Of a stretch of 64,000 nucleotides of DNA, positions 39,603 to 61,885 are shown one piece after another; positions within the stretch are counted from its first letter, which is position 1; each line of letters starts with the position of its first letter. The notes beneath the pieces were generated by a model. It ran no database searches, was not told where the DNA came from, and saw nothing but the letters and a program-made list of their open reading frames with translations. The translations under genes were made by a program, and so were the position numbers. This stretch comes from Mobula hypostoma. Lineage: Eukaryota. The DNA is taken from assembly GCF_963921235.1 (NCBI RefSeq), contig NC_086097.1, forward strand, positions 148,492,001 to 148,556,000, read 5' to 3'.

Positions 39603-39757
39603 AACAACAGGAATTCTGCAGATGCTGGAAATTCAAGCAACATACATCAAAGTTGCTGGTGAACGCAGCAGGCCAGGCAGCATCCATAGGAAGAAGCGCA
39701 GTCGACATTTCAGGCCGAGACCCTTCATCAGGACACGTTTCAGGCCGAGACCCTTCA
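39603..39757 (-). mobile_element. 155-bp Penelope-derived mini-element (hammerhead plus tail)
   Basis: Perfect 14-bp TSD TGAGGAAAGATATA at 39589-39602 and 39758-39771. Near-identical to 49674-49800. Confidence 0.92.
39699..39734 (-). ncRNA. Minimal type I hammerhead ribozyme motif (GAAAU variant)
   Basis: Minus strand reads GUC-CUGAUGA-AGGGUCUCGGCCU-GAAAU-GUC-GACUG. Confidence 0.65.
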
Positions 39758-42399
39758 TGAGGAAAGATATACTGGCTTTGGAGGCAGTGCAGAGGAGGTT
39801 CACCAACTTGATTCCAGAGATGAGGAAGATAGATAATGAGGAGAGATTGAGTTATCTGAGACTGTACTCACTGGAATTCAGAAGAATGAGAGGAGATATT
39901 ACAGAAACATATAAAATTATGAAAGGGATAGATGAGACAGAGACAGGGAACTTATTTCCACTGGTAGGTGAGACTAGAACTCGGGGACATAGACTCAAGA
40001 TTCGGAGGAGTAGATTTAGGATGAAGATGAAGAGGAACTGCTTTTCCCAGAGAGTGGTGAATCTATAGAATTCTCTCCCAATGAAGCAATGGAGGCTACC
40101 TCAATAAATACATTTAAGATAAGTTGGATAGATTTTTGCATAGTAGGGGAATTAAGGGTTATGGGGAAAAGGCAGGCAAGTGGAGATGAGTCCAAGGCTG
40201 AATCAGCCATGATCTCATTGAATGGTGGAGCAGGCTCAACGGGCCAGATGGTCTGCTCCGGCTCCTATTTCTTATGTCCTTATGTGAATCCCTTGGAGGA
40301 CCCCAACCCGACCCCAACATCACTAGCATCAACAGCTAGCTTAAAGGGCCTGCTGAAACCAGGAGCTGCCAGGGCGGCAACATGACTCAGCAACGACTTC
40401 AAATTCTCAAAGGCATGCTAACATGTCTCCATCCAAACGTAAGGAATCTTGGGACTAAGCAGGTTATTTAAGAGTGCAGCAACAGTGGAAAAATTTTGCA
40501 AAAACTTCTTTAATAACCTGTCATCCCGATGAACCATTTCAGCTCTCTCTGGGATACTGGCTGCTGGCACAGTGAAGTTCACAATGGCCTCCTCTGAGAC
40601 TAACTCTTCAAAGGAGACAGAGACAGAGAAAGGTCTCTCTTCTGTTCAATCACTGGCTGTTCACGAGAGGGAAACGCGTGGCCAAACCCTGTTAGATCTA
40701 CATCATCTTTGGCCATACAGGTGTCACAGAAGGCACTATCAGGGAGGTTGTCAGAGCCCTTGCCTTTGCTTTGATCTTTCTTATACATTGCAGGAATAGT
40801 AACACAAACAGGAAAGGTGCCTGGGAAAGTCAGTTCAAGCTCATCCCAGAAGAATCCCCATCACGTTACAACCTGGGCTCTCAGAAAGTAACATGAAGGA
40901 GTCAGGCCACAACAGGAATAACAAACAAAAGATATTTATTAATTTAACGTTTAGGTAAAGGAAAAAAGGGTCCCCAGCAGGTGTTGGCAATGGAAGAGTA
41001 ATTGCAGGTGTCCCAGGGAACTATAACACAGGTTAAAGAGGAAACAGGCCATGAAATGTATAGGACATAACAACAGGTCCAATGAAAAACTTATTTGCAA
41101 CATCACAGCCACATAACATCATATAATCAGCATTCACAAGAAAAACATAAAATAAAATTAGATCAAAAAGAATACAAAGTCCATTTTAGTGCAAAGTGAC
41201 CAAAGTGGTCAAGGTGTTGTAAAACTGTAGTGATAAGGATTGTCCCAGTTCATTCAAGACTGAAGGGAAGTAGCTGTTCTTGAACTTGATGGTGTGGAAA
41301 TTCAGGCTTCTGTATCTCCTGCCCCATGGTAGTTGTGAGATGGCGTGGCCCAGATGGCAGGGATCTTTAAAGATAGATGTTGCATGCGTGAGATAGTGCC
41401 TCATGTATAACCTGCCAGTGCAAGTGATGCATGAGAGCTCCATTTTAACATTTAAGAGAAGCTTGGATAGGTTCATAGATGGTGGGTATATGCAGGGCTA
41501 TGGTCATAGTGCAGGTCAACAGGTGTAGGCAGTTTAAATGCTTCAGTGCAGTCTAGATGGGTCTAAGGGCCTGCTTCTGTGTTGTACTTTTCAATAACTC
41601 TACGACTCTATGATCAATAATCCCACCAACCTGTACTTCTTTGGAATGTTGCCAGGGAGAATGGGGAGCACACACAAACTCCTTTGACAGTGGCAGATTG
41701 AACGCACATCACAGGCACTGTAATGGCATTTAACTGACCACCCTCACAGGCGTGGCACTCCTTGCCCTGATGTGATCATGTAATTGTGACTGCAGCAGAT
41801 GCAGTTATTTTCGTAATTATCAGTCCTGAATCTCATTCACCATGCTCAATATTCCCAGCTGAGGTTCCGTAAAGGAAATTATTCTTTGAACATCAGGTTT
41901 GATAAACTATTGTGCCTTCATTTTCCTCCCTCTTCTTTAAGCGCCTTGTCCAAATTTGTCTGTCCTCTGATCATAGGATACAAAGCATCCTTAGGAGCAG
42001 AGCTGACCCTGCTGCCCCATAGCTTGCCTTGCTGTTCCATTCGACTGTGTTTGATCTTGATCTTAAAAATACTTTCACTCCAGTTCCCCACATTCTCCCA
42101 GCAGAGCCTAACAAAATCTATTTTCAGCTTTGAATCAAAGCTTTCTGAAGAAGGCAATTTTCAAATGTTCACACTGCTCTGAAAAAATATACTGCATTTC
42201 TTAGCCTTAAAGGATACTCATAACCATTTAGACTTTGATCCCAGACTCTAGACTCTGCAACCAAAGGAAACAAACTCCAAGAATCCACCTTCTCAGGCAT
42301 TCTCAGAACCTTGCTTGTTTTAATCAAATTACTTCTTACCTTTCTTGAACCAGTGATCTTAGGCTTATCCTACTCAATATTCAATATTCTGTCCAGTCT

Positions 42400-43970
42400 A
42401 TATTGAAGAGGACTGTGAACCAAAGAGGTCAATCTGGGTGTTCCCCAAACCAAAACCATCTGTTATCCTGGAGATCAAATCACTACTGAAGTCCAGGACT
42501 ATGGCAATCAAATCAGGTGACACTGACCTATGTAGGACATCGAAGTACAACTTTCATAAACCTATTAGGGATGCCAAGGAGCAATACCAGTACAAAATGG
42601 AGTCCCAAACCAGCTCTCAGTTGTGGCAAGGTTTGCATCCCTCCCCCATGCTCAATGCATTTTCTGCACTTCCAGTTAAGATGTTGCTACTGAACGTGTG
42701 CAACAGCTCCTGGTTGTCAAAACGATAAGAAAGCTGTCTAAAATCATCACTAAAAATACTTCTGCTGTGTCAAATTATCACTGCAAACAGTAAAGGGGCT
42801 AGCAATGGCAAGGCGAGTTTGGGGGATGAGGCTAGATGGTATGTTGCAGAATTGTTGCAGATGGAGTTCTGATGCCTGTACAGCTGGCCCGGTGCAAGTT
42901 TGGGTCACTGTAGGCACCAAAAGGAGAAGTCAGGACCCGGACAGAGAAATTCCGTGTTTGTTCAACTGGCTCAGTGCAAGGTTGGTTCGCTCTGGGCACT
43001 GAGCTGATCTGAAGAGCTGCAGGGCAGCGTCGGGTTGGGTGATGGAATCTGGGCCCAGTGCAAGTCAGTGGCCAGCAAAATCTAGGCCCAAAGTGGGTTG
43101 TTGCATCATGAAATCTGGGCCCAGAGTGAGTCACTGCGTGGCGCGGCCTAGGTCCTGGACCTTTCACAGAAGCAGTGCCTGGGTCTTAGTGCAAGATTCG
43201 ATATACTATTTAGACAATTTAAATGCCCGCCTAGGTTGGATGCAACAGCCGAGTTCTCTTGCCCTCTGTGATCTTCACTCCTCTCTCCAGGGCGCTGGAG
43301 CCTTTTGCTGTTCTGTCATTGGGTCAATTTAAACGCCACCTCAGGTAGACTGAAAAGACAGGGTGTCAGTCAGGACGAGAGCCGATTTCACTCATTTTCT
43401 GCAATAGTCATCTCCGTGGCACTGAGGCTACAAAGACTGTCCCAGCTTCTGTGCTCCATGTCCGCTAATATGATGAACTCATATGGAAGTCTTTGGGGCT
43501 CCCCTTCTGATCTCTGATCTTTCAGACTGCAATTCGTAAGGATAGGAGACAACACCACTGCCACAATTATCCTGAATACCGCTTTCCCACAAGGCTATAC
43601 CCTCAGCCCCTTACCTTGTTGCATACACTCTCATCACTGTGTAACCAGATTCTGCTCTAACTCTACCTACGAGTTTGCAGATGTACCACTGTAGTGGGAC
43701 GAATCTCAGATAATCATGACTTGAAGTATAGGAGGACTTGCAGAGCCAAGTAACATGGTATCAAGACAACACGCTTTCCCTCGATGTCAACAAAACAAAA
43801 GAGCTTCAGGTAGCCGATAGGATGGTGTATTAATGGTAGTGAGATGGGGATAGTTGGGAGTCTCAAATTCTTCAATGTAAGTATCAACAATAACTTATCC
43901 TTGTCCATCCATATCAATGTAATGGCCAGGAAAGTGTATTAGCATATATAGTATTTTCTCAGAAAGCTAA
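42400..43970 (+). mobile_element. Fragmented Rex1/Babar LINE with a nested non-coding insertion at about 42670-43330
   Basis: VFPKPKP..IRDAKEQY..QLWQGL (ORF 42438) and VRIGDNTT..FPQGYTLSP..EFAD near 43535-43685. Confidence 0.7.
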
Positions 43971-44081
43971 CGAAATCTCAAGTGTATCCTCTCAATATGG
44001 TTCTGTCTGCCCATTTCCCACATGTGATAGGTGTCCACACCCCCAACTCGTTCCATCTGTCCATCATCCCTCCCTTATATG

Positions 44082-44687
44082 TGTAACACTCGTTGCATCT
44101 AGTGGCTTGATCTCGGGGATGGTGCCCCCTCCCTGACCAAACTTTAGCACTCTTGTTTGGGTGGATGCTGCGTGCTGTGTCCCCTTTGTAACAGAGCTAC
44201 CCCGAAATAACATTCAGTCCACAATGTGCGGTTAAACAATTAAGATTTTATATTCAAGTATGGAGTTAGTAGAGAAACAAAAGAAAGGGAAATCAAATAA
44301 AAGGCACCAATAATCTCATCAACATGTCCAGTGCACAACGTTGGAGCTCACGGATTCCCTTTCGCTGATCCTCCTTCGCTCATCGTCGACCCCTGGGCTC
44401 CCTCCCCAAGCCCAGGCCCAGCGGGTCCAGCAACCGTCTCCTCAAGCCACATCTTCTCTCTTCATCCTCTTCGCGCCTTCTCCCCCAAGCCCACGCAAAC
44501 TAACAGCTTTCACACAGACAGAAAGAATAACATCTATCTCAATTGGTTAGCAAATGAATACAAGTCCCGTTATCACTAATTATACCCCCACACATGCTGC
44601 TATAGAGAACCACTGTCTCAGCAGTTAACAGTACAGAGAAGCCACTTTATTCACCTTAGCAGTAACATAAAAGAAGAAACCCTTATA
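44082..44687 (-). mobile_element. Solo LTR, about 606 bp, related to 22784-23410
   Basis: TGTAAC..CTTATA termini (CA decayed to TA). TSD TATG at 44078-44081 and 44688-44691. Shares CAGCATCCAC.CAAACA with the 22784 LTR in reverse orientation. Confidence 0.75.
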
Positions 44688-44952
44688 TATGGTTTCAATT
44701 ACCATCTACCTAATGTCAGATTCCATCATCTACAGCCTATCTCCACGTATCACCTTCCAGTCTCTGGCTTTCCCTCCATCCTTCCCTCTCTGTATCTAGG
44801 TCCAGTTAGGTCCCCCTCTTCCTGTCTCTCCCTCTCTCTCTCTCTCCCCTCTCCCTCCGTCCCTCTACTTCTCCCTCCTCTCTCTACCTCTCGCTACCTC
44901 TCTTTCCCTCTGTATCTGTCACTTTCCCTGTCCCTCTCTCTCTTTCTCTCTT

Positions 44953-45014
<62 letters not shown>

Positions 45015-45259
45015 TTTCTATCGTTTACCAGCTGCTGTTTCCCGGTTCCACTCCTCCCCCTCCCTCACATGGCTCCATCCACCCATTATCCCCTCTCCGC
45101 AATTGCCAGTCCCTAGCTCACCCTTCACCCCTCCTTCTCACCGTTTTACAGGGGTTAGCTCCTCTCTATAGTCTTAGTCCCAATATGGGGTCTGAAACTT
45201 CGCGTATCACTTTGCCTCCTCAGACCAATTGTGCTCCTCTGGCAGTTAGCAGTTTGCTC

Positions 45260-47782: not shown

Positions 47783-47785
47783 AAT

Positions 47786-48113: not shown

Positions 48114-48955
48114 ATGGCGTTGTTTGGAACCATTACAGCTTTTGATAGTGGCATTGAAGACTGAGCAACTTACATTGAAAGAGTGGAGTTATATTGTGAT
48201 TGTAACGGTGTTGATGATGAAAAGAAAGCCCGTGTCTTACTCAGTGTTATGGGAGCAAAAACATACGACCTGCTACGGAGCTTGTTAACCCCTGAAAAGC
48301 CAGCTGACAAAACATTCAAGCAAAGAGTAGACACCCACCAACAGCACTTAATCCCCAAACCACTGGTTATTGCTGAAAGATTTAAATTTCATAAAAGGAG
48401 TCAGAACAAAAATGAAAGCATTTCTGAATATTGTGCTGAATTGCGCAAATTATCAGAACATTGTCAATTTGGAGCTGGTCTATCAGACGCATTGTGGGAC
48501 AGGTTAGTGTGTGGCATGCACTGTAAAACCACACAGAAGAAGCTCCTGTGTGAAAAAAACCTTACATTCGAGAATTGCAATATCAACAGAAACAGTGGCA
48601 GGGGGTGCTTCCAAGATACAAAAAAAAATCTCTGGAATATGCCACAAATAAAATGTCACTGAACAGAAAGGAAGGAAAGAAATGTTACCGTTGTGGGAAC
48701 AGGTCACATGACCCTGATGATTGTTGGTTCAAAGATAAAGAATGCAGAAACTGTGGCAAACAGGGCCACATTGGCAGAGTATGCAAGGCTAGTAAACAGC
48801 AGAAAAAGGACAAAATACAGAGAAACAAGAAACCCCAGAAAGGAAAATACAACAATGTGCACAAAATGAAAGAAAGCAATTCTGATGAAAGTGACTCAGA
48901 CAAAAGTGAATTGTCTTGTCTGCAACTTCACAGCGTGGAAGAGACAGATGATTGA
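48114..48955 (+). pseudogene. gag: gag with two CCHC zinc knuckles (premature stop at 48162, frameshift near 48575)
   Basis: MALFGTITAFD..ED*ATYIERV, ESISEYCAELRKLSEHCQFG..DRLVCG, CYRCGNRSHDPDDC and CRNCGKQGHIGRVC. Confidence 0.92.
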
Positions 48956-49765
48956 AGAGTAATATGGATCACTCCACAAGTGGCAGGCGTGAGACTGAAA
49001 ATGGAGTTGGGCACAGGCTCAGCTTTAACAGTAATATCTGTACACGACTACAAACGACTGTTTTCTCACATACCACTGAAACGAACTAAACTACTGCTAA
49101 AGACTTAGACAGGACAGAAAGTGCGTCCCAAAGGTAAAATTAAAGTGACAGTGACCTACGGAGACAAAACACAGCAGCTGAACCTTTATGTACTGAGAAA
49201 TGGAGGACCACTGTTGCTGGGACGTGAATGGCTCAGGAAAATTCAGTTGGATTGGCACACCATCAAGGCACTAAATGTGGCAGTGAAGGCGGGCAGCAAG
49301 GCTACATCTGAGAGACTGTCACAAATACTTGCTGACTCTGAGGAAGTGTTCATGAAAGGAATAGGAACACTTCGGGGCATGAAAGCAAAGATTGTGATTG
49401 AGGAAAACGCATGTCCAAAATTTGACAAAGCCAGGCCAGTGCCATATGCAATCTGTCCCACAGTAGAGGCAGAGCTGAAAAATCTGGAGCAGACTAGGGT
49501 CCTGTCAAAGGTGGATTGGAGTGAATGGGCCACACCTGTTGTTCCAGTGATGAAGAAAACCCCCAGCACAAAACCAGGAAAACCAAGCGAGGTGTGCATA
49601 TGTGGTGACTTTAAAGTGACTGTTAACCCAGTTCTCTGCACAATACAGTATCCCCTACCCCATATTGAGGACAACAGGAATTCTGCAGATGCTGCAAGTT
49701 CAAGCAACACACATAAAAGTTGCTGGTGAACGCAGCAGGCCAGGCAGCATCTGTAGGAAGAGGTG

Positions 49766-49803
49766 CAGTCGACGTTTCAGGCCGAGACCCTTCGTCAGGA
49801 CTA
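49766..49803 (-). ncRNA. Minimal type I hammerhead ribozyme motif, intact core
   Basis: UAGUC-CUGACGA-AGGGUCUCGGCCU-GAAAC-GUC-GACUG; helix I is UAGUC/GACUG and helix III is the palindrome ACGU. Confidence 0.82.
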
Positions 49804-50362
49804 ACTGAAGGAAGAGTGAGTAAGGGATTTGAAAGTTGGAGGGGGAGGGGGAGATCCAAAATGATAGGAGAAGACAGGAGGGGGAGGGATGGAGCCAAGA
49901 GCTGGACAGGTGATAGGCAAAAGGGATACGAGAGGATCATGGGACAGGAGGTACGGGAAGAAAGACGGGGGGGGTGACCCAGAGGATGGGCAAGAGGTAT
50001 ATTCAGAGGGACAGAGGGAGAAAAAGGAGAGTGAGAGAAAGAATGTGTGCATAAAAATGAGTAACAGATGGGGTATGAGGGGGAGGTGGGGCATTAGCGG
50101 AAGTTAGAGAAGTCGATGTTCATGCCATCAGGTTGGAGGCTACCCAGACGGAATATAAGGTGTTGTTCCTCCAACCTGAGTGTGGCTTCATCTTTACAGT
50201 AGAGGAGGCCGTGCATAGACATGTCAGAATGGGAATGGGATGTGGAATTAAAATGTGTGGCCACTGGGAGATCTTGCTTTCTCTGGCGGACAGAGCGTAG
50301 ATGTTCAGCAAAGCAGTCTCCCAGTCTGCCCTGCTTTCTCTGGCGGACAGAGCGTAGATGTT

Positions 50363-50782
50363 CTCCCTCCTGGCACTTATCCGTGTAAGCGGAACAAGTG
50401 CTACACATGCCCTTACCTTTCCTCCCTTACCACCATTCAGGGCTCCAAACAGTCCTTCCAGGTGAGGCATCACTTCACCTGTGAGTCGACTGGGGTGATA
50501 TACTGCGTCTGGTGCTCCCGATGTGGCCTTTTATATATTGGCGAGACCTGACGCAGACTGGGAGATCACTTTGCTGAACATCTACGCTCTGTCCACCAGA
50601 GAAAGCAGGATCTCCCAGTGGCCACACATTTTAATTCCACACCCCATTCCCATTCTGACATGTCTATCCACGGCCTCCTCTACTGTAAAGATGAAGCCAC
50701 ACTCAGCTTGGAGGAACAACACCGTATATTCCATCTGGGTAGCCTCCAACCTGATGGCATCGACTTCTCTAACTTCCACTAA
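50363..50782 (+). pseudogene. Penelope Cys-rich linker plus GIY-YIG endonuclease (one internal stop)
   Basis: LPPGTYPCKRNKCYTCPY..FTCESTGVIYCVWCSRCGLLYIGET*RRLGDHFAEH..VATHFN..EEQHRIFHLGSLQPDG. Confidence 0.9.
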
Positions 50783-51075
50783 TGCCCCACCTCCCCCTCG
50801 TACCCCATCTGTTACTTATTTTTATACACACATCCTTTCTCTCACTCTCCTTTTTCTCCCTCTGTCCCTCTGAATTTACCCCTTGCCCATCCTCTGGGTC
50901 CACCCCGCCCTTGTCTTTCTTCCCGGACCTCCTGTCCCATGATCCTCTCGTATCCCTTTTGCCTATCACCTGTCCAGCTCTTGGCTCCATCCCTCCCCAT
51001 CCTGTTTTCTCCTATCATTTTGGATCTCCCCCTCCCCCTCCAACTTTCAAATCCCTTACTCACTCTTCCTTCAGT

Positions 51076-51113
51076 TAGTCCTGACGAAGGGTCTTGGCCT
51101 GAAACGTTGACTG
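51076..51113 (+). ncRNA. Minimal type I hammerhead ribozyme motif (GUU cleavage triplet)
   Basis: UAGUC-CUGACGA-AGGGUCUUGGCCU-GAAAC-GUU-GACUG. Confidence 0.78.
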
Positions 51114-53708
51114 CACCTCTACCATATTGAGAACATTTTTGTTTCCCTGTCAGGAAATCGTTTTGACCCAGGCTTACCTCCAAATGGAAATCGAGGAAGC
51201 ATCCAAGTAATATTTGACAATGAATATCCACGAAGGACTTTACCAGTCTAACGGGTTGGTGTTTGGGATAGCATCATTGCCTGCAATCTGGCAAAGGGCA
51301 ATGGACCAGGTCCTGCAGGGGATTCCAGGAACTCAGTGTTACCTGGATGACATCATTGTCACCGGCAAAGATGATGACGAACATCTTTCTAACCTAAAAC
51401 AAGTGCTCACCAGGTTACGAGAATATGGGCTCAGAGCTAATCGACAGAAATGTGAGTTTTTCAAAAAGGAAATCTCATACTGTGGGCATGTGATCAACAA
51501 GGATGGCTTACACATGTCTCAAGACAAGATAGAAGCGGTGCTTAAGGCACCACCACCTGAAAATGTGTCTCAGCTGAGAGCATATCTTGGTCGTGAACTA
51601 TTACCACAAGTTCTTGTCTAACTGATCCACAGTCCTACACCAACTAAATGCACTATTACAGACAAAGACACAATGGAAGTGGACTGAGAGGTGTGAGAAT
51701 GTGTTTCAAGAAACTAAAAGACTCATAACTTCAGAAGGGGTGCTCGCACACTTTGACCCCTCCTTACCTATCCGACTAGCTTGTGATGCCTTGTCCCATG
51801 GATTAGGAGCTGTGTTATCACACAAGTTTCCAGATGGCTCCAAAAGACCAATAGCCTTTGCTTCAAGAACACTAACTTCATCTGAACGCAACTATGCACA
51901 GATTGACAGAGAGGCCCGAAGCCTCGTGTGGGGAGTCAAGAAATTCAGTCACTACTTGTATGGCCAGAAGTTTACTCTGTTGACTGACCATCAGCCCCTC
52001 CTGTCAATCTTCAATCCAAGAAAAGGCGTTCCAGTGATGACAGCACAAAGGCTGCAGCGATGGTCCCTTTTCTTAGGAGGTCACAGGTATGACATTGAAC
52101 ACAAGGGGACCAAGCAACATGGCAATGCAGATGGTTTGTCATGTTTACCACTGCCCACTTCTGATCAGCAGAGGTTTTACACACAACGATAGTCGAACAA
52201 TTACCAGTAACAAACAGCCTCATTGAGAGGGAAATACGCAATGACCGTATGTTGTCAAAAGTGTATGACATCACAGTAAAGGGATGGCCAGCACGGGCTA
52301 ACACGTTGTTTCCAGCCTTCGCAGCGAGGAAGGAGCAGTTGTCAGTGTGTTGGGGAACACTAAAGTGTGGTTCACGAGTTGTGATCCCTCCCAAGCTACG
52401 CACTAGAGTGCAGGAGGAACTGCACGAGGGGCACCTGGGTACCGTGAAGATGAGAAGTCTTGCCTGTGCCTATGTGTGGTGGCCAGGAATCAATAAACAG
52501 ATTGAGGACTTGACCAAGGACTGCTCTGGATGTCAAAAGATTCAGAACACACCACCACAAGCCCCTCTTCATCCGTGGCAGTGGCCCTCATCACCATGGC
52601 AATGAGTGCACATTGACTTTGCTGGACCATTATGGACGCTATATTTTTAATTGCCGTTGATGCACATTCCAAATGGCCAGAGGTCATCAAAATGAAGACA
52701 ACTGGATCGGAAAAGACTCTTACAGTTCTGAGGACCATGTTCGCCAGGAATAGCACACCAGAACAAATCTGCACAGACAATGGACGACAATTTGTCTCTG
52801 GAATCAAGCACTTTACAACTGTCCCTTACCATCCATCCACAAATGGCTTGGCAGAAAGATTTGTGCAGACATTCAAGAAAGTCATCAAGGCAATGGACAG
52901 CGAAAGTCGACTACTGAAACACAAGATAGACAACTTCCTCCTTGCCTATTGTAATGCAGTACACACAACCACTAATCAGACCCCAGCGACGATGTTCCTG
53001 AACAGGAACCTGAGGTCCCACGTGGATCTTCTTAAACCAGATGTACGGCATGATGTGGAAAACAGACAGTTTCAAACACTTGAATGCTAAGTCAACACGG
53101 AACTTCAGTGTGGGACAGTCAGTTCTTGCATGTGATTACCGGACTGAAAAGTGGCAGCCGGGTAAAATTTCTGCCATAGACCGACCACTAATGTAGAGAG
53201 TACAGGTGCGAGAGAACGTATGGAGACGTCATGTGGATCAAATCCTGGATGCTCAGGTGAAAACTCAACAACAACTTGCCCGGACTCCCATGACACATAG
53301 AAGCACATCATGTGGATCAAGTCCTGAATGCTCAGGTGAAAAACAGAACAGCACCTTGCCCTGACTCCACGGACATAGAAGCAAACACTCCTGATGTGAC
53401 CACATCAGCCTCGCCCACAGATAAGCCTGTCATTAGTGCTGAGGACCCACCTGATGTACCTGTGGAGACTAACTCCCCAAAGCAAATGTTTCAGGGCAGA
53501 TGTTACCCGGAGAGGCAGAGAAGAACCCCCCCCCCCCGCAGAGACTTGACTTATAATTTTATAATTATTATTATTATTACGTTACTTTGTTATAATTTGA
53601 TATTATTAAGTTACTAAGTAAACAATTGGTAGGTGTTTGTATGTTAAGGGTACACATTTTTGTTTAGCGTAGTGCCCCAGTAAAAAAAAGTTGATACACT
53701 ATTAAAAT

Positions 53709-53921: not shown

Positions 53922-55987
53922 CATGGCAAAATTTTTAAGCAATAGAATCATGGATTCATAAAGCTGCACAGCATGGACACAGGCCCTTTGGCGCAGCTCA
54001 TCCATACTGGCTAAATTGTCTGTCCAAGTTAGTCTATCCGGTCACTTTCCTGATTTTGGCCCATATCCCTTTAAAACTTTACGTTCTATGTACCTAGGGA
54101 GTCCTTGATTGAAACTCAGCAGCGCCAGGGAGCACTGTGAACGGAGCAGTGTAGTGGGCTGGGGAATGTAGAAAGCCTGTGATTAGGAAGGTGAATGGTG
54201 GCTGCAGTCAGGAGACTGGAGGGGAGAGAATGTGATTAGACGGGCTGATGGAAATTACCATCAGAAGAGTGGAGAGGAAATAACCTGGAATAGGAAATGA
54301 AGCCTTAGTCTGGTGGGATTAGTAAGGGTGGCAAGGAACACAACTGGAAAGATCATATCAGGTGGATGCTGAACTAGGGAAAACATCTCCTTATAGGATA
54401 GGTGGATGATGAAATGAGCATTATGTGCCTTTGATAGCCAATAGGACAATTTACCATTAAAGGTATTCAGAATAAAGATCCCAAAAGCAAACAAAAAGGA
54501 TTTACCTGGAAAATAGGTAACACTGAGTCCCTTCTTAAATATCCCATGTGTCGTTTCACTATTGGATTCCATAGCAGTAGCTCAAACAGCTAGGAGAATG
54601 CCTTCAAGATCCAGTGTGGGGCTACACTCTACATTCAAGCCTCATGCAGCCTGTCAAGCACATATTCCTGCTGGAATATTGTCAAGCATTCTCTATTAAT
54701 TGATGCCACTTCCAAGCATCCAGCAGCTGCTACACATGTTCGGTGCAAAAACGACTGTTACAATTTCTTGAAGTATGCTGTGCAGAAGCAGAATTACTGA
54801 AAGCTTTCAGCAAGTGGCTTTCAGTTTTAAAAGAAATATTATCATATTTGTTGCATAAAAATGGTGCACAATAAATGATGGAATTAATAGCTTTATAAAG
54901 ACATATTTGCCACCATTTGACAGCATTTCCCAAGTTACTTTTGCTTATAATTTTTCCCTGAGGCTAATAGGTGAAAAACCTATTAAACTCTTTTCACCCA
55001 TGACTGTGCCCCTGCCTATGCCACCAACACCATCAGCAAATTTGCAGATGACACCACAGTGATTGGATTAATGACAAAAGACAATGAAACAGCATACAGA
55101 GAGGAGGTGCAGAAACTATATAAATGGAGCAATAACTATAACCTCTCACTGCAATACATGGGCAGGTACAATATTTGGGTTTAAAATAGCCTTTCTTTGA
55201 TTTCAGAGCTTTCCTTTTAAATCTCAGCTTTAATTCTTGATGCTATTTTACATTTATTCATAGTATTTTATGACATGGGCATGTGCAATATTTGAATGGG
55301 GCAGCACTGTTTCTCTTTATTTTAGTGTTGTTTGTTTTTAATTCAGTTGTAACTTGAGCTTTAAGTCTCTCCAAGATGACACCATTGAACAATATGACCA
55401 ACAGTGATATTCTGCAGACAGTTCACAAAACTACTTTTACTTCTTCTTTCAAATATGCTTTTACTACTAAGCTGCATAGATTGGAACCTGTGATTTACAA
55501 ATTGATGATGTGTTTTTGGGCCAGTTGAGCGATCTGGCGCTTTGCTTTATCTGAGGGATTTCGGTGAGGTTTTAAACCAAATGCACAGCCTGGAGACAGT
55601 GAGCAAGCCCATGATCCACTCCATTACTTCTCTCCGATTAAGTCATTGAGCAAGGTTAAAGATGACAAGGACAAGAGTGGAGGATGGGTGGGTATTCGGC
55701 GCTGGCTGCCTGCATTTGTCTAGTTTTCCTCTCCCTCTCGCTAGCTGCTGTTGGAGGAAAGTCTAGGGATCCACGTTGCAAGGATTGACCAGCAAGGTTA
55801 TGGACTCATTTTGGGGAACTTTGAGGTTCATGTTGCATGTGTTTCTGGATTCAGGAAACTCTTTTGTTTTTGCTGTTTTGTGAGCAGTTTGACTGGGCGG
55901 ACTGGGGTGTTTTGGCGAAGAATAGCTCTGAAGTCTGCAGTGGGCTAGTGGCGCAGCACTGGACTGAACTAAACTGAATACTGTGGA

Positions 55988-56174
55988 TCCCTCCCCCTCC
56001 TGTCTTCTCCTATCATCTTGCATCTCCCCCTCCCCCTCCAGCTTTCAAATCCCTTACTCACTCTTCCTTCAGTTAGTCCTGACGAAGGCTCTCGGCCTGA
56101 AACGTCGACTGCGCCTCTTCCTATAGATGCTGCTTGGCCTGCTGCGTTCACCAGCAACTTTGATGTATGTTGCT
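55988..56174 (+). mobile_element. 187-bp Penelope-derived mini-element (UTR end, hammerhead, shortened tail)
   Basis: Perfect 13-bp TSD TGAATACTGTGGA at 55975-55987 and 56175-56187. Near-identical to 50990-51120 and to the 39603 and 49674 tails. Confidence 0.92.
56074..56111 (+). ncRNA. Minimal type I hammerhead ribozyme motif, intact core
   Basis: UAGUC-CUGACGA-AGGCUCUCGGCCU-GAAAC-GUC-GACUG. Confidence 0.82.
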
Positions 56175-56969
56175 TGAATACTGTGGACTCCTAGTTTGAT
56201 GTTAATATCCCATGTGTTCACTTGCTTTTTGCCATTTGCACAATTTGTTTCTTTTCACACATTGGGTGTTTGATGTTTTCTTGAATGGGTTCTAAGGTGT
56301 TTCTTTGTTTCATGGCTGCCGGTGGGAGGACAAATCCCAGAGCTGTATTTTGTCTACATACTTTGATAATAAAGCAACACACACAAAATGCTGGAGAAAA
56401 TCAGCAGGTCAGGCAGCATCCATGGAGGTAAAGAAACAGTCAACTGTTAGGTCCAGGACCCTTCTTCAGGACTGCAAAGGAAAGGAAAATACACCAGAAT
56501 AGAAACTAGAAGGTGATAGGTGAAGTCAGGTGGGTAGAAAGGTAAAGGGCTGGAGAGGAAGGATTCTGATAGGAGAAGAGTGTGGGCCATAGGAGAAAGG
56601 GAAGGAAGAGAGGAACCAGGGGGAAGTGATAGGCAGATGAAAAGAAGTAAGAGGCCAGAGTGGGGAATAGAAAAGGAGGGGGGGGGGATTTTTTTTTTAC
56701 CGGAAGGAACAATCCATCAAGTTGGAGACTGCCCAGATGGAATATAAGGTGTTGATCCTTCACTCTGAGGGTGGCCTCAACTTGGCAGAAGAGGAGGTTA
56801 TGGACCGACATGTCAGAATGGGAAAGGGAATCAGAATGTTTGGCCCCTAGAACGTTCTGGTTTTGGCGAATGGAGCGGAGATGCATAATGATGCGGTTCC
56901 CTAATTTATGAGGAGGCCACGTTGGGAGCACCAGACACATTAGATGACCCCAGCAGATTTGCCCGTGAA

Positions 56970-57650
56970 AAAAGAAGGGGGAGGAGAAGATGGCGGTGCA
57001 GTGCAGCGCATGCGGCCGCTCCGAAATGATATCATATGTGTTAACTAGGGGCCGTGCACAATCCTGATTTGATGGAGACAGCCATGAGAAGCACGGAGGA
57101 ACACCTGGAGAAACTTCTGAAATGCCTGTTTCCCTGCCGCTGCTACTGTGCGATCGATCGAGAATCTCCAGAGGGGAAGGCCTCAAATTCTTGGCTTTGC
57201 CTATCGCCTGTTGCCGGGGCCAGGGTCAAAGTGCTCAGCAGAGATAGTGCTCGGTGTCGGACGGCTGGTCAGAGGCTCGAAGTTTTCGGACGGACTCAAG
57301 AGTCGGCTGTGGTCGGGTGCTTCTAGGATGCTGCATCGGCAAGTTTGCGGCGCTTGAAGCTCATGGCAGGAAGAGTTTTTTCTTCCTTCTACCGTCTGCG
57401 TGAGATGATGGGACTTTCAAGAGACTTTAAGACTTTTTTTTTTACCATGCCCATGGTCTGTTCTTTATCAAATTACAGTACTGCTTTGCACTGTTGTAAC
57501 TATATGTTATAATTATGTGGTTTTTGTCAGTTTTTCAGTTGGTTTGCCTTATGTTTCTGTGACATCATTCTGGAGAAACCTTGTATCATTTCTTAATGCA
57601 TGCATTACTATATGACAATAAAAGACGACTGTGTGTCCTCATAATCTAAA
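56970..57650 (+). mobile_element. Young CpG-rich non-coding retroposon (AAGATGGCGG head, GACAATAAA tail)
   Basis: Interrupts the GIY-YIG region between ..GTGAA and ATGTTG.. . Many CpGs retained, no Pol III boxes and no LINE ORF. Confidence 0.7.
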
Positions 57651-58418
57651 AAAATGTTGTGTCACCTGGAAGGACTGTTTTGAGCCCTGAATGGAGGTGA
57701 GGGAGGAGGTGTCTGGGCAGGTGTAGTACTTTGGCCGCTTGCAGGGATAAGTTCCGGGAGGGAGATTAGTGGGCAGGGATGGACAGACATGGGAATCACA
57801 GAGGGAGCGATCCCTGCAGAAAGCAGAGGGTGGAGGAGGCAAAGATATGTTCGGCGGTAGATCCCTTTGGAGATGGCGGAAGTTGCGGAGAGTGATGTGT
57901 TGGATGTGAAGGCTCATGGGGTGGTAGGTAAGGACAAGAGGACCTCTATCACTGTTAAGGCAGCGGGAAATGGGATGAGTGCAGAAGTTGGAGAAATAGA
58001 GGAAATGCGGGTGAGGGCAGCATCAATGGGGGAGGAAGGGAAATCCCGTTCTTTGAAGAAGGAGTATATCGCTGATGTCCTGGCAAGGAAACCCTCATCT
58101 GGAGAATAGATGTGGTGGAGATGAATGAACTGATAAAAGCAAATAGCATTTTTACAGGAGGTAGGGTGGGAAGAGGTATAGTCAAGATAGCCACGGGAAT
58201 TGGTAGGTTATCAAAGATGTCAGCTGTCAGTTTGTTTCCAGAGATGGAGACGGAGGTATTGAGAAAGCGGAGGGAGGTGTCAGAAATGGACCGAGTGAAT
58301 TTAAGGGCAGAGTGGAAATCGGAGGCAAAGTTGATGAAAATAACAAGAGCATTATTACGAAAATGATAGGAGCATTATTACGGAAAGCTTCGCACATGGA
58401 TTGTTCCACATAGCTACC

Positions 58419-59310
58419 TGTTACATAACCGGCAACAATGAATATCAATCGAGACAGGTTATATAAAAACAACCAAACATTTATTAAACACAGATAAATG
58501 ATAAGGTAAAAAAACCACGAAAACTTTAACCGGAAGTTAACCGATATGCAGCCATTCAACACCCCGTCACTCGGCACTGGTTCTTAAAGTGTTAAATGCT
58601 AAAACAGTTCTTAAAGCGATGAAGTCAAATATAGTTCTTAAAGTGATAACTTCAAAAGTCCAACTGATTTACATGTTCAATTGGAAGAGACTTCTCTGGA
58701 GAAGGATTTCTTTACAGATGCAACTTTCCTGCTGGTTCTGTCCACAGGATTCACAATGCTGAAAATAAGCAGTTTAAAACGACTGACCTTAAATTCTTTT
58801 AGAGAGAAAGCAAACCATTGCATGAACTCCTTGCTCTTTTTGGCAAGAGTTATCTCCGATGCAGGTAGCTACTCCTCCAATGAAGCCTCAATAAGGTTGA
58901 TTCTTTATTAAACTGCCAAACGATGCCGACTCTTCTCAATCCTTTGATCTTGTACTTCGATAAATTCTTCACTCTCCCTTCTACTTTTGGAATTGAGTAA
59001 ATCAACACATCTAGCAAAAATTTCCAGTCCAATAATATCATATTTTGCAATAGAACGCAATACTCTGTTTTACAAATGAAACTGCGTCACAAAAACAAAC
59101 ATGCAACAGAAACGGAGGCACAGCACATTCTGCCTGGAAATCTACAAACTAAAAACCCAACTGCGTCACCTGGGTCGACCCTTATATAGTCATGGTGCAC
59201 ATGTCATCACGTGACCTCACATCGGCGGGAAAATCACATCAGGTGACCTCCAAAAGATGATTACATCATTCTCACAAAACAAAAACACAGATCTCCTTGA
59301 GCATGTAACA
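58419..59310 (-). mobile_element. Solo LTR, 892 bp
   Basis: TGTTACAT..ATGTAACA inverted termini; minus-strand TATATAA near 59182 and AATAAA near 58480. Interrupts the Penelope RT; TSD degenerate. Confidence 0.8.
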
Positions 59311-60019
59311 CGAACAAAAAAGCAAACTTAGCTGGGACCCATGCAGGTGCCCATGGCTACCTCTTGAGTCTGGAGAAAGTGGGAGAAGCCAAAGGAAAAA
59401 TAGTTGAGCGTCAGGACCAGTACTTTCAATTCAGGAATGTATTTTCAATCTTTTGGATCTTCAAAGATGTCATTCTAAATAACTCAGATGTCATTGTGTT
59501 TTGCACTGAATGGAGCAGCACTGCAATCTCATTGTCCTCAGCTAAACAACTACCTAATGAACTAAAAGGAAAATGTTGTCCTTTGTTCCATCTTTCTTTA
59601 AACGATAAAGTTTATCATGCAACACTGCAAATCCACAGATTTATATTGAGCTGAAGTATATATCAGGAAAACACAAATGAAGAAATCAAACCCCAGATCT
59701 CACTTATAGGTGTAAAATGGAAACCTATGTAAGTCTGACGAATCAACACCGCCAAATCACCAACAGCTGCAGAGAATGTTGAGGCCTAATGCCTGTTGAT
59801 GCTTGAACTGAGTTAGTAAAGGGAGAGTACAGGGTTTGGATTGGCTCTGCTCAGATTCATAATATCTCCCAACAAAAATAAAGCACAAAGGTTCCATCCA
59901 CCCTGGACACTCTGTCATTCCAATCCACTCCAATCAGGCAGAAGATGCAAAAATCTAATAGCACATCACCAGCTCCTATTGAGCTTGCTGAGGAGGACAT
60001 CCTATCATGACAGTTTGAC

Positions 60020-61885
60020 CTAGTTAAATGGCGATTGACCCTCAGCTCATCATTCCATCCTCACGGCCCCTTGTCCCAATCATCTAGGATCTTGAATACC
60101 AGATTCGCCAAGCCCTACAGCACAAGCCTGACACACCTGACAACTGCACGTACGTGCTGGCAGCTGTGCGCTCTGAGGCAGTCCAGTGGGCCCACTTCTC
60201 ACCCCCCTTCTCTCTAAGTGCACAACGGACCCTGGATTTTCTGCGATACTTGTTCTGGTGGCCCACCATGATCTCAAGGTGCACATTAGATCATTGCTGC
60301 CTACCCTTAATATGCCCAGTCCAATTCCTTGAACCAGCAGCTCTTTGGGCTCCTGCGGCCCCTACCAGTCCCTTGATGCTTATGACATCACATTGCCATG
60401 GATTTCATCATGGGTTTGCTGCCTTCTGATGGAGCCACAGTGATCATGACAGTGGTGAACTGGTTCTCCAAGGCAGCCTACTTCCTTGCCCTCCCCAAAT
60501 TTCTGCAGCCACTGAGTCAGCAAAACTGGTTCTCCAACAAATAGTTTGCCTCTACCGTTACTCTCAGGCCATTGTGTTGGGCAAGGGCCCACAATTCGTC
60601 TCCCACTTCTGGTGGGCCTTCTTCTCCCTCCTCAACACCTCAGTGAGTTTGTCCTCTGGCTAACTTCAGCAGACCAACAGTCAATCAGAAAGAGCCAAAT
60701 GGAGAAGGTTCTGCGGTGCTTCACTGCCCCTAACTCTTCCATATGGAAGAAGCACCAGCTCTGGGCCAAGCTGTCCCACAATCTACACACCTCCTCTGCT
60801 CAGGAATATCACCCTTTGAAGTGCTTCATGGCTACAAACCCCCATTCTTCCACACCAGCAGTGGAAGTCCTGTCCGGGCCCTGGTTCACCATTGCTGGAA
60901 TGCTTGGAAGAGGGCATAGAGCCTGGGGATTATGTCTGGCTGTCCCTACACACTGACTCCTGCAAGCTCTTGCCCTGGTTCATTGGTCCTTTTAAGATTA
61001 GCCGTTGTATCAACCCTGCCTCTAGCTGCCATCCTCCCTCAGGATCACATCTACATTCCATGTGACCTGCCTTAAGCCTGTTGTCCATGGATTACTCAAT
61101 CCACCTGAGCCTACACCTCCAGAACCAGTGATGGTGGAAAGTAGTGCAGTGTACACAGTTTGGCATTTGATGGATTCATGTTGTTGCGGGCAGGGTGTGT
61201 GGTACCGGGTTAACTGGGAAGGGTGCATCCCAAAGGAGAAGTCTTAGGTGCTGTCCAGTTTCTTCTTAGATCTATTGCTCATTGAGGAGTTCCTGCAGAC
61301 CCATCCAGATTGTCTAGGGCCAACGGTTTCTGGCCGTAGGATGGGTGAGGGTGGGTGTGTGTGTGGTTCCTGTCGGGCCTGCACAGGAATCTCCACCCAG
61401 CTAACAGAAGTCATCTGCCCAAACACAAAATACTCCGCAGATGCTGGGGTCAAAGCAACACTCACAACACACTGGAGGAACTCAGCATGGCGGGCAACAT
61501 CTGTGGAAACGATCAGTCAACCTGACGAAGGATTCTGGCCTGAAACGTTGACTGATCATTTCCACAGATGCTACCTGACCTGCTGACTTCCTCCAGCGTG
61601 TTGTGAGTAAAGTCACCTGCCACTCATTTCCATCTTATCGCCTGCAGCCCACTTAAACCCTGCTCTCATCCACAGTTCCTTTTCACCCACTGAACCAGCC
61701 AGCCTCAACTATTTGCTCTTAGCCTTTGGTTGCCTCATTGTCTTGTTGAGATAGGTATCTGTACTCTTCCATTTTGTGCCCCTTGTGGTTTGTTATTTTG
61801 CAGTTTATTATTAACCCTCTCGCTCAGCGCTGAATCATCTCCACTGCTCAGCATTTGGGTCAACCCTCCTCTACATTTCCTGACA
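60020..61885 (+). mobile_element. Chromovirus-type Gypsy 3' remnant (integrase, chromodomain, PPT, LTR at about 61360-61885)
   Basis: [41 protein letters not shown] and YTVWHLMDS..YRVNWEG..EKS*; LTR ends CCTGACA. Confidence 0.85.
61421..61608. mobile_element. Fold-back Penelope-tail mini-element with the hammerhead core as its loop
   Basis: Arms at 61460-61521 and 61547-61608; loop CTGACGAAGGATTCTGGCCTGAAAC. TSD AAGTCA(T/C)CTGCC at 61408-61419 and 61610-61621. Confidence 0.88.

What the first reader, a model, noticed from the sequence alone, without database searches (positions are those of the whole stretch)
39603..61608. Family of hammerhead-ribozyme-bearing Penelope-derived mini-retroelements, recently mobile and without coding capacity
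Seen: a ~38-nt hammerhead core (helix I - CUGANGA - helix II - GAAAC - GUH - helix I') occurs at 39699(-), 49766(-), 51076(+), 56074(+) and 61522(+), with decayed traces near 13740, 18330, 18971, 34095, 45190 and 56460. Three copies are only 155-190 bp: ribozyme plus tail, each with its own TSD. Helix III is just the loop-less palindrome ACGU. Established: Penelope-like elements carry minimal hammerheads in their pseudo-LTRs, and loop-less helix III implies dimer-dependent cleavage. Inference: the ribozyme plus a ~90-nt tail is the minimal cis unit mobilised by a Neptune-type RT/GIY-YIG, behaving like a retrozyme or SINE. About ten traces in 64 kb suggests a very high genomic copy number.
Basis: partly seen in the sequence, partly recalled or inferred. 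Interest (0 to 1): 0.82.

Follow-up and report, generated by a model that had tools for sequence, protein, structure and literature searches.

The report
Truncated Penelope retrotransposon copies carrying hammerheads
The short hammerhead-bearing repeats are the tail ends of one hugely amplified, already-known kind of jumping gene (a Penelope-like element) whose full protein-coding copies lie elsewhere in the same genome, so they are most likely dead by-products and not a separate family, although many begin at one spot that probably marks where the element's RNA starts.

Summary
The minimal hammerhead core is at all five stated places, and three insertions of 155, 187 and about 190 bp have their own target-site duplications (TSDs).

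The motif is the known loop-less minimal hammerhead of Penelope-like elements (PLEs). It lies about 300 nt after the stop codon and about 140 nt before the next ATG of a 3.5-kb Neptune-type element. In this 3.48-Gb genome there are 39,061 exact copies of the 33-nt core and 86,056 of a 26-nt tail word. Three of 14 sampled ORF-bearing copies keep an open 1,016-codon RT/GIY-YIG frame.

All the canonical PLE hallmarks are present:
- variable 5' truncation;
- two 3' ends 34 nt apart (the "tail");
- head-to-head inverted partner copies;
- partial tandem repeats (pLTRs).

Short and long copies share the same sequence variants, so a separate SINE-like lineage is not supported.

Copy length is not smooth. 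In 100 tail-anchored copies, 26 start within 20 nt at the hammerhead's outer edge, with a peak at U538. I read this as the RNA's 5' end; this is inferred. Rare single-TSD tandem arrays resemble retrozymes.

This scan reached the same reading on other windows of this genome. The kind is known; the scale is unusual.

The parts
39603..39757 (-). 155-bp mini insertion of the main PLE family. It holds a hammerhead plus the 3' end with the 34-nt tail, preceded by a 23-nt partial duplicate of the core. It is flanked by the 14-bp TSD TGAGGAAAGATATA at 39589-39602 and 39758-39771.
   Evidence: 97.0% identical over 133 nt to a full-length natural copy
39699..39736 (-). Minimal hammerhead core (CUGAUGA ... 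GAAAUGU; the U in GAAAU departs from the family's GAAAC).
49670..51121 (.). A single 1,452-bp head-to-head PLE insertion. The minus arm is 50329->49671 and ends with the tail. The plus arm is about 50330/50359->51121 and ends 16 nt past the cleavage site. The 10-bp TSD CCATATTGAG lies at 49660-49669 and 51122-51131. The insertion sits inside a gypsy-like element.
49766..49803 (-). Minimal hammerhead of the minus arm.
50380..50783 (+). C-terminal part of the PLE ORF: the CX4CxxC linker and the GIY-YIG/CCHH endonuclease, with one in-frame stop. The stop codon is at 50781-50783, about 300 nt upstream of the hammerhead.
   Evidence: read by eye; aligns to 2864-3293 of a full-length copy
51076..51113 (+). 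Minimal hammerhead of the plus arm (GUU at the cleavage triplet).
55988..56174 (+). 187-bp 5'-truncated copy starting 87 nt upstream of the hammerhead and ending at the short (tail-less) 3' end. The 13-bp TSD TGAATACTGTGGA lies at 55975-55987 and 56175-56187.
   Evidence: 97.7% over 177 nt
56074..56111 (+). Minimal hammerhead. A G-to-C change gives it a 4-bp helix II.
61414..61609 (+). Fold-back (snap-back type) insertion of a second, rarer PLE family. An inverted arm carrying the tail is joined to a direct arm, with a single hammerhead (CUGA at 61522) at the apex of a long hairpin. The TSD is imperfect (AAGTCA exact; 11 of 12 by eye).
   Evidence: The exact core occurs only 2 times in the genome, and the other copy is a plain direct copy.
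18326..18417 (+). 92-bp mini insertion of an older PLE family, 5'-truncated inside the CUGAUGA box, with a 15-bp TSD.
33360..34240 (+). Old, longer PLE copy: an endonuclease-coding relic (72% to the main family) followed by the decayed hammerhead near 34095 and a tail.
56368..58347 (-). Old, longer PLE copy: RT/EN-coding relics (73-76%) followed by the decayed hammerhead near 56460.
13625..13866 (+). Old fold-back relic with a decayed hammerhead near 13740. Boundaries are approximate.
   Evidence: by eye; no convincing TSD

Best explanation
These repeats are insertions of one very abundant, canonical Neptune-type Penelope-like retrotransposon whose non-coding end repeat carries the known minimal hammerhead. 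The 100-190-bp copies are most likely non-propagating short cDNAs made by that element's own reverse transcriptase, not a separate family.

**Shown.**
- The unit is about 3.5 kb: ATG, a 1,016-codon RT/GIY-YIG ORF, about 300 nt of 3'UTR, the hammerhead (cut site C570|G571 in my reference numbering), then two alternative insertion ends at about 636 and 670, and about 40 nt further on the next ATG.
- Copies share their 3' ends and differ at their 5' ends.
- Partner arms lie head to head, one with the 34-nt tail and one without.

**Inferred.**
- Reverse transcription starts internally at the two sites, as shown biochemically for an Anolis PLE.
[quoted passage not shown] The RNA would then carry the entry sites both in its leader and at its 3' end, and initiation in the leader would run off after about 100-135 nt and give the mini copies.
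- The hammerhead probably acts only when two copies pair, and it is not what sets the ends of most copies.
For: **Placement of the hammerhead in a PLE.**
- The ORF end with GIY-YIG lies 300 nt upstream of the hammerhead in the window.
- The join from position 670 to the ATG is seamless in two independent copies.
- Hammerheads flank the ORF 3,512 bp apart.
- 3 of 14 ORF-bearing copies have an open 1,016-codon frame.
- Pfam gives weak RVT_1 (26.7 bits) and GIY-YIG (18.6 bits) matches. The DKG, CX4CxxC and CCHH motifs were read in the translation.

**Canonical PLE insertion features, in a tail-anchored sample of 100 copies** (the first 100 genomic places of an exact 26-mer).
- 3' ends: 57 at 625-648 and 43 at 665-671.
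- All 42 of 42 paired arms have a partner with the other kind of end.
- 5' ends: 21 extend past the 671-nt reference, 24 are scattered over positions 16-499, 26 lie at 530-549 and 19 at 550-599.

**Same source as the long copies.** Haplotypes at three variable sites are shared (chi-square p=0.18, 43 short against 45 longer copies). The tail to no-tail ratio is also the same.

**A 5' end at about 538 appears in three contexts.**
- Mini copies: 14 of 100 arms start at 536-541, with a peak of 6 at 538. TSD-defined starts with no extra bases are seen at 538 and 540.
- Copies that run on into the ORF: 7 of 40 start at 530-543, against 12 of 40 spread over 484 nt. One of them starts at 540 and has hammerheads on both sides of the ORF.
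- A tandem array whose unit starts at 537.

**TSDs.** 11 of 20 unpaired short copies have a TSD of 9-15 bp. The window copies have TSDs of 10-15 bp.

**Literature.**
- Minimal hammerheads in PLE end repeats, mostly as single motifs 'probably related to truncated PLEs', and pairs on opposite strands 100-700 bp apart: PMC4209133, sections 5 and 9 and passages.
- The tail, the inverted 5'-truncated partner and pLTRs: PMC8557442, passages.
- Internal RT initiation at two adjacent sites, cutting of both target strands, and a hammerhead not needed for insertion in vitro: PMC11167929, main text.
- A transcription start and internal promoter in the D. virilis Penelope end repeat: PMC2377424, passages.
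Against: - No RNA data could be used. No listed run is on record as RNA, and only contigs were available, so the RNA 5' end at 538 is untested.
- 35 of 55 short arms sit in head-to-head pairs. A structure-driven stop or fold-back at the hammerhead could produce the same pile-up.
- One haplotype (CG-T-T) is commoner in short copies (17 of 43) than in longer ones (8 of 45). This could hint at some separate amplification.
- BLAST end points are uncertain by a few bases.
- Two of the 100 arms (both starting at 576) share identical flanks and are not independent.
- The sample comes from 3.4 Mb of one chromosome and from copies with an exact 26-mer, so it favours young copies.
- Pfam scores for RT and GIY-YIG are below the curated cut-offs.
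- The Neptune assignment rests on motifs, not on a tree.
Confidence: 0.62

Rival explanations
1. The fragments are the same PLE fragments, but the pile-up of 5' ends at the hammerhead edge is made during reverse transcription and does not reflect an RNA end. After copying the hammerhead, the new cDNA would fold back through the helix I complement (GACT/AGTC), or the enzyme would fall off or switch template at the folded or dimerised hammerhead. That would give mini copies and hairpin insertions.
For: - 35 of 55 short arms, against 7 of 45 long arms, are in head-to-head pairs.
- One class of pairs has one arm starting at about 534-546 and the other at about 566-577, next to the cut site. This is what helix I fold-back priming predicts (L013, L049, L073, L078, L090, L091).
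- The window's 61414-61609 insertion has exactly this form.
Against: - Unpaired, TSD-defined copies also start at 537-540.
- 45 of 100 arms read straight through the hammerhead.
- In the tandem array the enzyme passed three hammerheads.
- Many pairs are symmetric (537/537, 530/531, 547/547, even 46/46), which helix I pairing does not explain.
Confidence: 0.22
2. The roughly 100-135-nt unit (hammerhead plus tail) would be a self-sufficient non-autonomous element. It would be transcribed from its own copies, for example from an internal initiator-type promoter, and copied in trans by the PLE enzyme, so it would multiply like a SINE or a retrozyme.
For: - There is a discrete mode of 5' ends at 538.
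- Internal RT initiation means a read-through transcript of any copy could serve as template (PMC11167929).
- D. virilis Penelope has an internal, LINE-like promoter at its transcription start (PMC2377424).
- The bases TCAGTT at 533-538 resemble an initiator (a motif recalled from memory, not tested).
- Haplotype CG-T-T is enriched in short copies, 17 of 43 against 8 of 45.
- Retrozyme-like arrays exist in this genome.
- A 2026 preprint argues that animal retrozymes derive from PLE end repeats (10.64898/2026.07.22.740005, abstract and Results part 1).
Against: - No private lineage was found: the same haplotypes occur in short, middle and long copies.
- 5' ends are spread from 500 to 599, and 45 of 100 copies are longer.
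- Most mini copies start at or after 538, so they would lack the TCAGTT bases.
- There is no pol III head.
- No expression data are available.
- The copies in the window are single or inverted, not direct tandems, so they cannot supply the two hammerheads needed for dimer cleavage.
Confidence: 0.12
3. Hammerhead self-cleavage would define the copies. The templates would be RNAs cut at C570|G571, possibly circularised, and the short copies would be their cDNAs.
For: - A 63-bp, TSD-flanked copy starts exactly at G571 (L082).
- There is a small bump of 6 of 100 starts at 570-579.
- Several inverted arms start at 571-577.
Against: - The main peak is at 538, 33 nt upstream of the cut site.
- Two of the six starts at 570-579 are one duplicated locus, and three are fold-back partner arms.
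- In vitro, the hammerhead was not needed for PLE insertion, and no RNA-seq reads ended at the cut site in Anolis (PMC11167929).
Confidence: 0.04

Closest known systems
Minimal hammerheads (min-HHR) in the end repeats of metazoan Penelope-like elements (Cervera and De la Pena 2014, PMC4209133)
   Same: - Type I hammerhead with an intact CUGANGA / GAAA / GUH core.
- Short helix I, and helix III reduced to a palindrome, so activity is expected only as a dimer.
- Located in the PLE end repeat.
- Mostly found as single dispersed motifs from truncated PLEs, with some pairs on opposite strands.
- Found in Neptune elements of fishes.
   Different: - Scale: the paper names about 4,000 (coelacanth) and about 9,000 (Xenopus) motifs as remarkable cases. 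Here one exact 33-nt version alone occurs 39,061 times.
- Helix II is only 3 bp in the main version, shorter than the 7-8 bp described for Schistosoma.
- The paper stresses high sequence variability, whereas these copies are very uniform.
Canonical EN+ PLE insertion architecture: pLTR, adjoining inverted 5'-truncated copy, and a 30-40-bp tail at one end (Craig et al. 2021, PMC8557442; Frangieh et al. 2024, PMC11167929)
   Same: All features were seen: frequent 5' truncation, partial tandems, inverted partner arms, a 34-nt tail present on exactly one arm of each pair, two 3' ends as expected from two RT start sites, and variable TSDs.
   Different: - In the Anolis Poseidon element the hammerhead overlaps the ORF start and the RT start sites lie 111-118 nt inside the ORF. 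Here the hammerhead lies about 140 nt before the ATG and the two ends lie about 40-75 nt before it.
- A sharp preferred 5' end at the hammerhead's outer edge is not mentioned in the passages I read.
Animal non-LTR retrozymes (Cervera and De la Pena 2020, PMC7229834, abstract only; Li, Clavereau and Pollet 2026 preprint)
   Same: Short, non-coding, hammerhead-bearing sequences related to PLE end repeats. Elsewhere in this genome there are direct arrays of 310-bp and 267-bp units, each with a hammerhead.
   Different: - The window's copies are dispersed monomers or inverted pairs, not direct tandems.
- Array units differ from locus to locus (537-857 against 515-781), so they look newly made and not one propagating family.
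- No circular RNA evidence is available.
5'-truncated LINE copies and SINEs (general knowledge, recalled)
   Same: Dead-on-arrival short copies sharing a 3' end, TSDs, extra bases at some 5' junctions, and inverted 5' segments.
   Different: - There is no poly(A) or microsatellite tail and no pol III head.
- Both arms of an inverted pair cover the same 3' region, unlike L1 twin priming.
- The 3' ends are internal to the transcript.

Membership tests
Minimal type I hammerhead of PLEs (min-HHR) | Conserved core: CUGANGA, GAAA, and a cleavage triplet GUH | tested here: met
   CUGACGA / GAAAC / GUC (GUU in two copies) at five places; 6 matches against 0 expected. The 39705 copy reads GAAAU.
Minimal type I hammerhead of PLEs (min-HHR) | Helices I and II closed by base pairs around the core | tested here: met
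   Helix I is UAGUC/GACUG (4 Watson-Crick pairs plus U-G). Helix II is AGG/CCU, 3 bp (4 bp in the 56079 copy). Read; helix I appears in the predicted fold.
Minimal type I hammerhead of PLEs (min-HHR) | Helix III reduced to a palindrome without a loop | tested here: met
   A-C-G-U lies directly between GAA and the cleaved C.
Minimal type I hammerhead of PLEs (min-HHR) | Lies in the end repeat (pLTR) of a PLE | tested here: met
   The motif is found on both sides of the ORF, 3,512 bp apart, and the pLTR-ATG join is seamless.
Minimal type I hammerhead of PLEs (min-HHR) | Self-cleavage, as a dimer | not testable with these tools
   This needs transcription and cleavage assays. The cofold prediction says nothing about catalysis.
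Canonical hammerhead families in Rfam | A match to a curated hammerhead covariance model | tested here: not met
   0 matches at gathering score in the whole window. No hammerhead family among the 7 matches at E<=10 in 39000-62500. This is expected for a motif without helix III.
Penelope-like element, C-terminal EN+ (Neptune type) | [quoted passage not shown] | tested here: met
   1,016-aa open frame in 3 of 14 copies. RVT_1 scores 26.7 bits and GIY-YIG 18.6 bits, both below Pfam's cut-offs. The DKG, YIDD and GIY..YIG motifs were read in the translation.
Penelope-like element, C-terminal EN+ (Neptune type) | CCHH motif with two Cys between GIY and YIG (all canonical PLE endonucleases) | tested here: met
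   GVIYCVxCSxCGLLYIGET was read. The criterion comes from PMC8557442.
Penelope-like element, C-terminal EN+ (Neptune type) | CX2-5CxxC linker upstream of GIY-YIG (Neptune/Nematis; absent in Penelope/Poseidon) | tested here: met
   C-KRNK-C-YT-C was read. The criterion comes from PMC8557442.
Penelope-like element, C-terminal EN+ (Neptune type) | pLTRs from partial tandems, an inverted 5'-truncated partner, and a 30-40-bp tail at one end | tested here: met
   All 42 of 42 paired arms have one tail end and one short end. The tail is 34 nt.
Penelope-like element, C-terminal EN+ (Neptune type) | RT groups with the Neptune clade in a phylogeny | not tested
   No tree was built and no named reference RTs were fetched.
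Non-LTR retrozyme | Direct tandem repeats of short non-coding units, each with a type I hammerhead | tested here: not met
   In the window the copies are single or inverted. Elsewhere in the genome the feature is met at two loci: 3 full 310-bp units plus two partial units under one 13-bp TSD, and one full 267-bp unit plus two partial units.
Non-LTR retrozyme | Expressed as small circular RNAs | not testable with these tools
   No run is on record as RNA, and only contigs were available.
SINE | A pol III-type head (tRNA, 7SL or 5S derived) | tested here: not met
   No Rfam family reaches gathering score anywhere in the window.
SINE | Its own lineage with a fixed 5' end, distinct from the autonomous partner | tested here: inconclusive
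   There is a mode at 538, but 45 of 100 copies are longer and 19 shorter. Haplotypes are shared with long copies.

The most novel reading that the evidence does not exclude
The stretch from U538 to the two reverse-transcription entry sites is a complete cis module: a start site, a minimal hammerhead and the enzyme entry site in about 100-135 nt. It is transcribed as a discrete short RNA and copied over and over, making it the smallest Penelope parasite. The same enzyme also copies end-joined or circular 310-nt hammerhead RNAs round and round, as shown by arrays that sit under a single TSD. That would catch the birth of animal retrozymes from a PLE in the act.
Probability: 0.15. Interest if true: 0.7.

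Novelty: new member of a known kind. Interest (0 to 1): 0.3.

Why it matters
The kind is already described: minimal hammerheads in truncated Penelope-like elements. The finding is therefore mostly a correct identification and not a discovery.

Three points go beyond the ordinary.
- **Scale.** At least 86,056 near-identical copies, with open-frame full-length elements, make this genome a good natural data set for how PLEs integrate.
- **The preferred 5' end.** The preferred 5' end at the first base of helix I gives a concrete, testable handle on where PLE RNA begins and on what the hammerhead is for, which is still an open question.
- **The arrays.** Arrays of identical 310-bp hammerhead units flanked by a single TSD show, at the DNA level, a multi-round copying event. 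This is what models of the PLE-to-retrozyme link predict.

Tried and rejected
- **Rfam.** No hammerhead family matched at gathering score or at E<=10. The only notable hit, MIR1033 at 61488-61580(-) (35.4 bits against a gathering score of 70), is the long hairpin of the fold-back PLE insertion, not a microRNA.
- **Sampling bias.** My first sample, anchored on the exact hammerhead 33-mer (49 loci), could by construction only contain copies starting at or before 543. I replaced it with a tail-anchored sample.
- **False 5' ends.** Two apparent 'common 5' ends' of long copies were artefacts of using truncated copies as queries.
- **Whole-genome DNA search.** The search with a 671-nt copy scores only 40 candidates, so it gives no length census.
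- **RNA evidence.** No RNA holder is listed. The 22 runs are guesses and are held as contigs, and laying 4 of them gave no starts, ends or usable depth.
- **The 61522 copy as a hairpin family of its own.** Rejected: its exact core occurs twice in the genome, and the other copy is a plain direct copy.
- **A spliced 5' exon or common leader upstream of 538.** The bases before 537 look like a splice acceptor (pyrimidine tract plus CAG), but the extra bases at TSD-defined 5' junctions differ from copy to copy. The idea was not pursued.
- **Monomer and dimer MFE folds** say nothing about catalysis.
- **Literature search on PLEs in elasmobranchs**. The listing of 4 papers showed nothing that bears on this family. 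The papers were not read.

Full report
**1. Observation.**

The stated hammerhead cores are real. A 27-letter pattern of the core finds six places in the window at up to 3 mismatches, against 0.00 expected from shuffles: 39705(-), 39735(-), 49772(-), 51081(+), 56079(+) and 61522(+). Helix III is only ACGU without a loop. Rfam's hammerhead models do not match, even at E<=10, which fits a motif that lacks helix III.

Of the six 'decayed traces':
- those near 18330, 34095 and 56460 are confirmed by BLAST;
- 13740 is a recognisable relic;
- 18971 and 45190 are not supported.

Three short insertions have their own target-site duplications: 39603-39757 (155 bp, TSD 14), 55988-56174 (187 bp, TSD 13) and about 61414-61609 (TSD imperfect).

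**2. What the motif belongs to.**

At 50380-50783 the plus strand encodes the end of a GIY-YIG endonuclease ORF, and the hammerhead follows its stop codon by about 300 nt. The stretch 49670-51121 is one 1,452-bp insertion made of two head-to-head arms of that sequence. It is flanked by a 10-bp TSD and lies inside a gypsy-like element.

In the genome (3.48 Gb, 200 contigs):
- the exact 33-nt core occurs 39,061 times;
- an exact 26-nt word of the tail occurs 86,056 times;
- both have 0 matches in the reversed controls;
- the join from the tail into the ORF start occurs only 396 times.

Longer natural copies show a 785-aa and then a 1,016-aa frame with RT and GIY-YIG. Pfam sees both domains weakly. 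Three of 14 ORF-bearing copies are open over all 1,016 codons, and the other 11 have stops after 92 to 875 codons. Hammerheads flank the ORF 3,512 bp apart.

In two independent copies the sequence runs on without a break from the tail end to the ATG, about 40 nt further. The hammerhead therefore lies in a pseudo-LTR formed by partial tandem copies.

The endonuclease has the CX4CxxC linker and the CCHH motif. According to Craig et al. 2021 (passages), these mark Neptune/Nematis and not Penelope/Poseidon elements. No tree was made.

**3. Architecture of insertions.**

I took the first 100 genomic places of the exact tail word (3.4 Mb of one chromosome), fetched all of them, and measured each copy against a natural 671-nt copy from the window.

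- **3' ends** fall in two groups: 57 at 625-648 and 43 at 665-671. This is a 34-nt 'tail'.
- **Head-to-head pairs:** 42 arms lie in such pairs, and in all 42 the partner has the other kind of end.
- **5' ends:** 21 extend past the reference, 24 are scattered over 16-499 (0.03-0.07 per nt), 10 lie at 500-529, 26 at 530-549 (1.0-1.6 per nt) and 19 at 550-599 (0.3-0.6 per nt).

At single-base resolution the peak is at 538 (6 arms), with 14 arms at 536-541. This is the first base of helix I.

Frequent 5' truncation, an adjoining inverted 5'-truncated copy and a 30-40-bp tail at one end are the published hallmarks of PLE insertions (Craig et al. 2021, passages). Two adjacent internal RT start sites and cutting of both target strands were shown in vitro for an Anolis PLE (Frangieh et al. 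2024, main text).

The 61522 copy is a fold-back insertion of a second, rare PLE family. It is not a hairpin family of its own.

The decayed hammerheads near 34095 and 56460 are the 3' ends of older, longer PLE copies that still show ORF relics.

**4. Are the mini copies a family of their own?**

Evidence against a separate family:
- They are 97-98% identical to the 3' end of a full-length copy.
- The three-site haplotypes found in short copies (n=43) are also found in middle and long copies (n=45). The distributions do not differ significantly (p=0.18), although CG-T-T is commoner among short ones, 17 against 8.
- The proportion of tail to tail-less ends is the same in short (24 to 31) and long (19 to 26) copies.
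- There is no pol III head.
- In the window they are single or inverted, not direct tandems.

Evidence that the copies are real retro-insertions: 11 of 20 unpaired short copies have a TSD of 9-15 bp, and some have 7-17 extra bases at the 5' junction.

**5. The preferred 5' end.**

The same position recurs in two further contexts.
- Among 40 copies that contain the tail-to-ATG join, 7 begin at 530-543, against 12 spread over positions 16-499. One that begins at 540 has hammerheads on both sides of the ORF.
- A 1,262-bp array on another chromosome consists of a partial unit, three 310-bp units that differ by 0-1 bases, and a final partial unit ending at the short 3' end. All of it lies inside one 13-bp TSD. 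Each unit begins at 537 and ends at about 857, some 150 nt into the ORF.
- A second array has 267-bp units running 515-781.

I infer that 537-538 is the 5' end of a template RNA, most simply a transcription start in the pseudo-LTR. In D. virilis Penelope a start site and internal promoter lie in the pseudo-LTR (Schostak et al. 2008, passages).

Such an RNA would carry the RT entry sites both in its leader and at its 3' end. Initiation in the leader would then run off after about 100-135 nt and give the mini copies. This step is untested, because no usable RNA data were available.

The main rival is a stop or fold-back of the cDNA at the hammerhead. It is supported by the excess of paired arms among short copies (35 of 55 against 7 of 45) and by pairs with one arm at about 540 and the other at about 571-577.

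The cut site itself (C570|G571) plays at most a small part. There is one clean 63-bp copy starting at G571 and a bump of 6 of 100 starts at 570-579. Two of those six are one duplicated locus and three are partner arms.

**6. Comparison with what is known.**

Cervera and De la Pena 2014 (sections 5 and 9 and passages) already describe the following:
- loop-less minimal hammerheads in PLE pseudo-LTRs, including Neptune elements of fishes;
- their occurrence mostly as single motifs 'probably related to truncated PLEs';
- pairs on opposite strands 100-700 bp apart;
- their likely action as dimers, with low activity in vitro.

A 2026 preprint (abstract and Results part 1) argues that animal retrozymes derive from PLE pseudo-LTRs.

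The idea and the kind are therefore in print. What is unusual here is the copy number. The 2014 paper names about 4,000 and 9,000 motifs as remarkable cases. In the passages I read I also did not see the sharp 5'-end mode or the single-TSD arrays described. The literature searches were made, and the supplements of these papers were not consulted.

**7. Earlier notes of this scan.**

Eight earlier notes on other windows of the same genome reached the same identification, including the pile-up of starts at the hammerhead's outer edge and the fold-back insertions. I read them after forming my view. They are not independent evidence.

**8. Verdict.**

This is a new, extremely abundant member of a known kind. 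The interest is modest. It lies mainly in the testable 5'-end mode and in the retrozyme-like arrays.

Noticed in passing
window 48165-53090 (+): A gypsy-like LTR retroelement: a gag-like zinc knuckle, RT, RNase H and integrase domains in broken frames. It is split by the 1,452-bp PLE insertion at 49670-51121.
   Followed up: partly
window 61488-61580 (-): The sub-threshold Rfam hit to plant microRNA family MIR1033 (35.4 bits, gathering score 70) is simply the long hairpin of the fold-back PLE insertion. It is a false lead.
   Followed up: yes
L136 (G000:C2:157815500-157819500, minus strand): A 1,262-bp array of 310-bp hammerhead-bearing units (three full, two partial; 0-1 differences between units) lies inside a single 13-bp TSD. 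It looks like one multi-round retro-copying event.
   Followed up: partly
L156 (G000:C2:122541800-122544200, minus strand): A second, shorter array with 267-bp units (positions 515-781 of the element). No clear TSD was found.
   Followed up: partly
L082 (G000:C1:1756036-1757861): A 63-bp insertion with a 9-bp TSD begins exactly at the predicted hammerhead cut site (G571).
   Followed up: partly
window 39400-39900 and 30196-30335: The 155-bp PLE copy sits inside another dispersed repeat. A second copy of that repeat, 83% identical, lies at 30196-30335. The repeat was not identified.
   Followed up: no
element positions 520-537 (e.g. window 56056-56073): The bases just before the preferred 5' end read like a splice acceptor (CTCAC..CTTCCTTCAG|) and also contain TCAGTT, an initiator-like word. 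In D. virilis Penelope an intron ends at the 5' edge of helix I (PMC4209133, passage). Whether either signal is used here is unknown.
   Followed up: no
junctions in L117, L121, L123, L137, L145, L150, L151, L085: In short tandem forms the upstream unit often ends at element positions 805-835, about 100-125 nt into the ORF. This is close to the distance of the RT start sites reported for the Anolis PLE, so it may be a third entry site.
   Followed up: no
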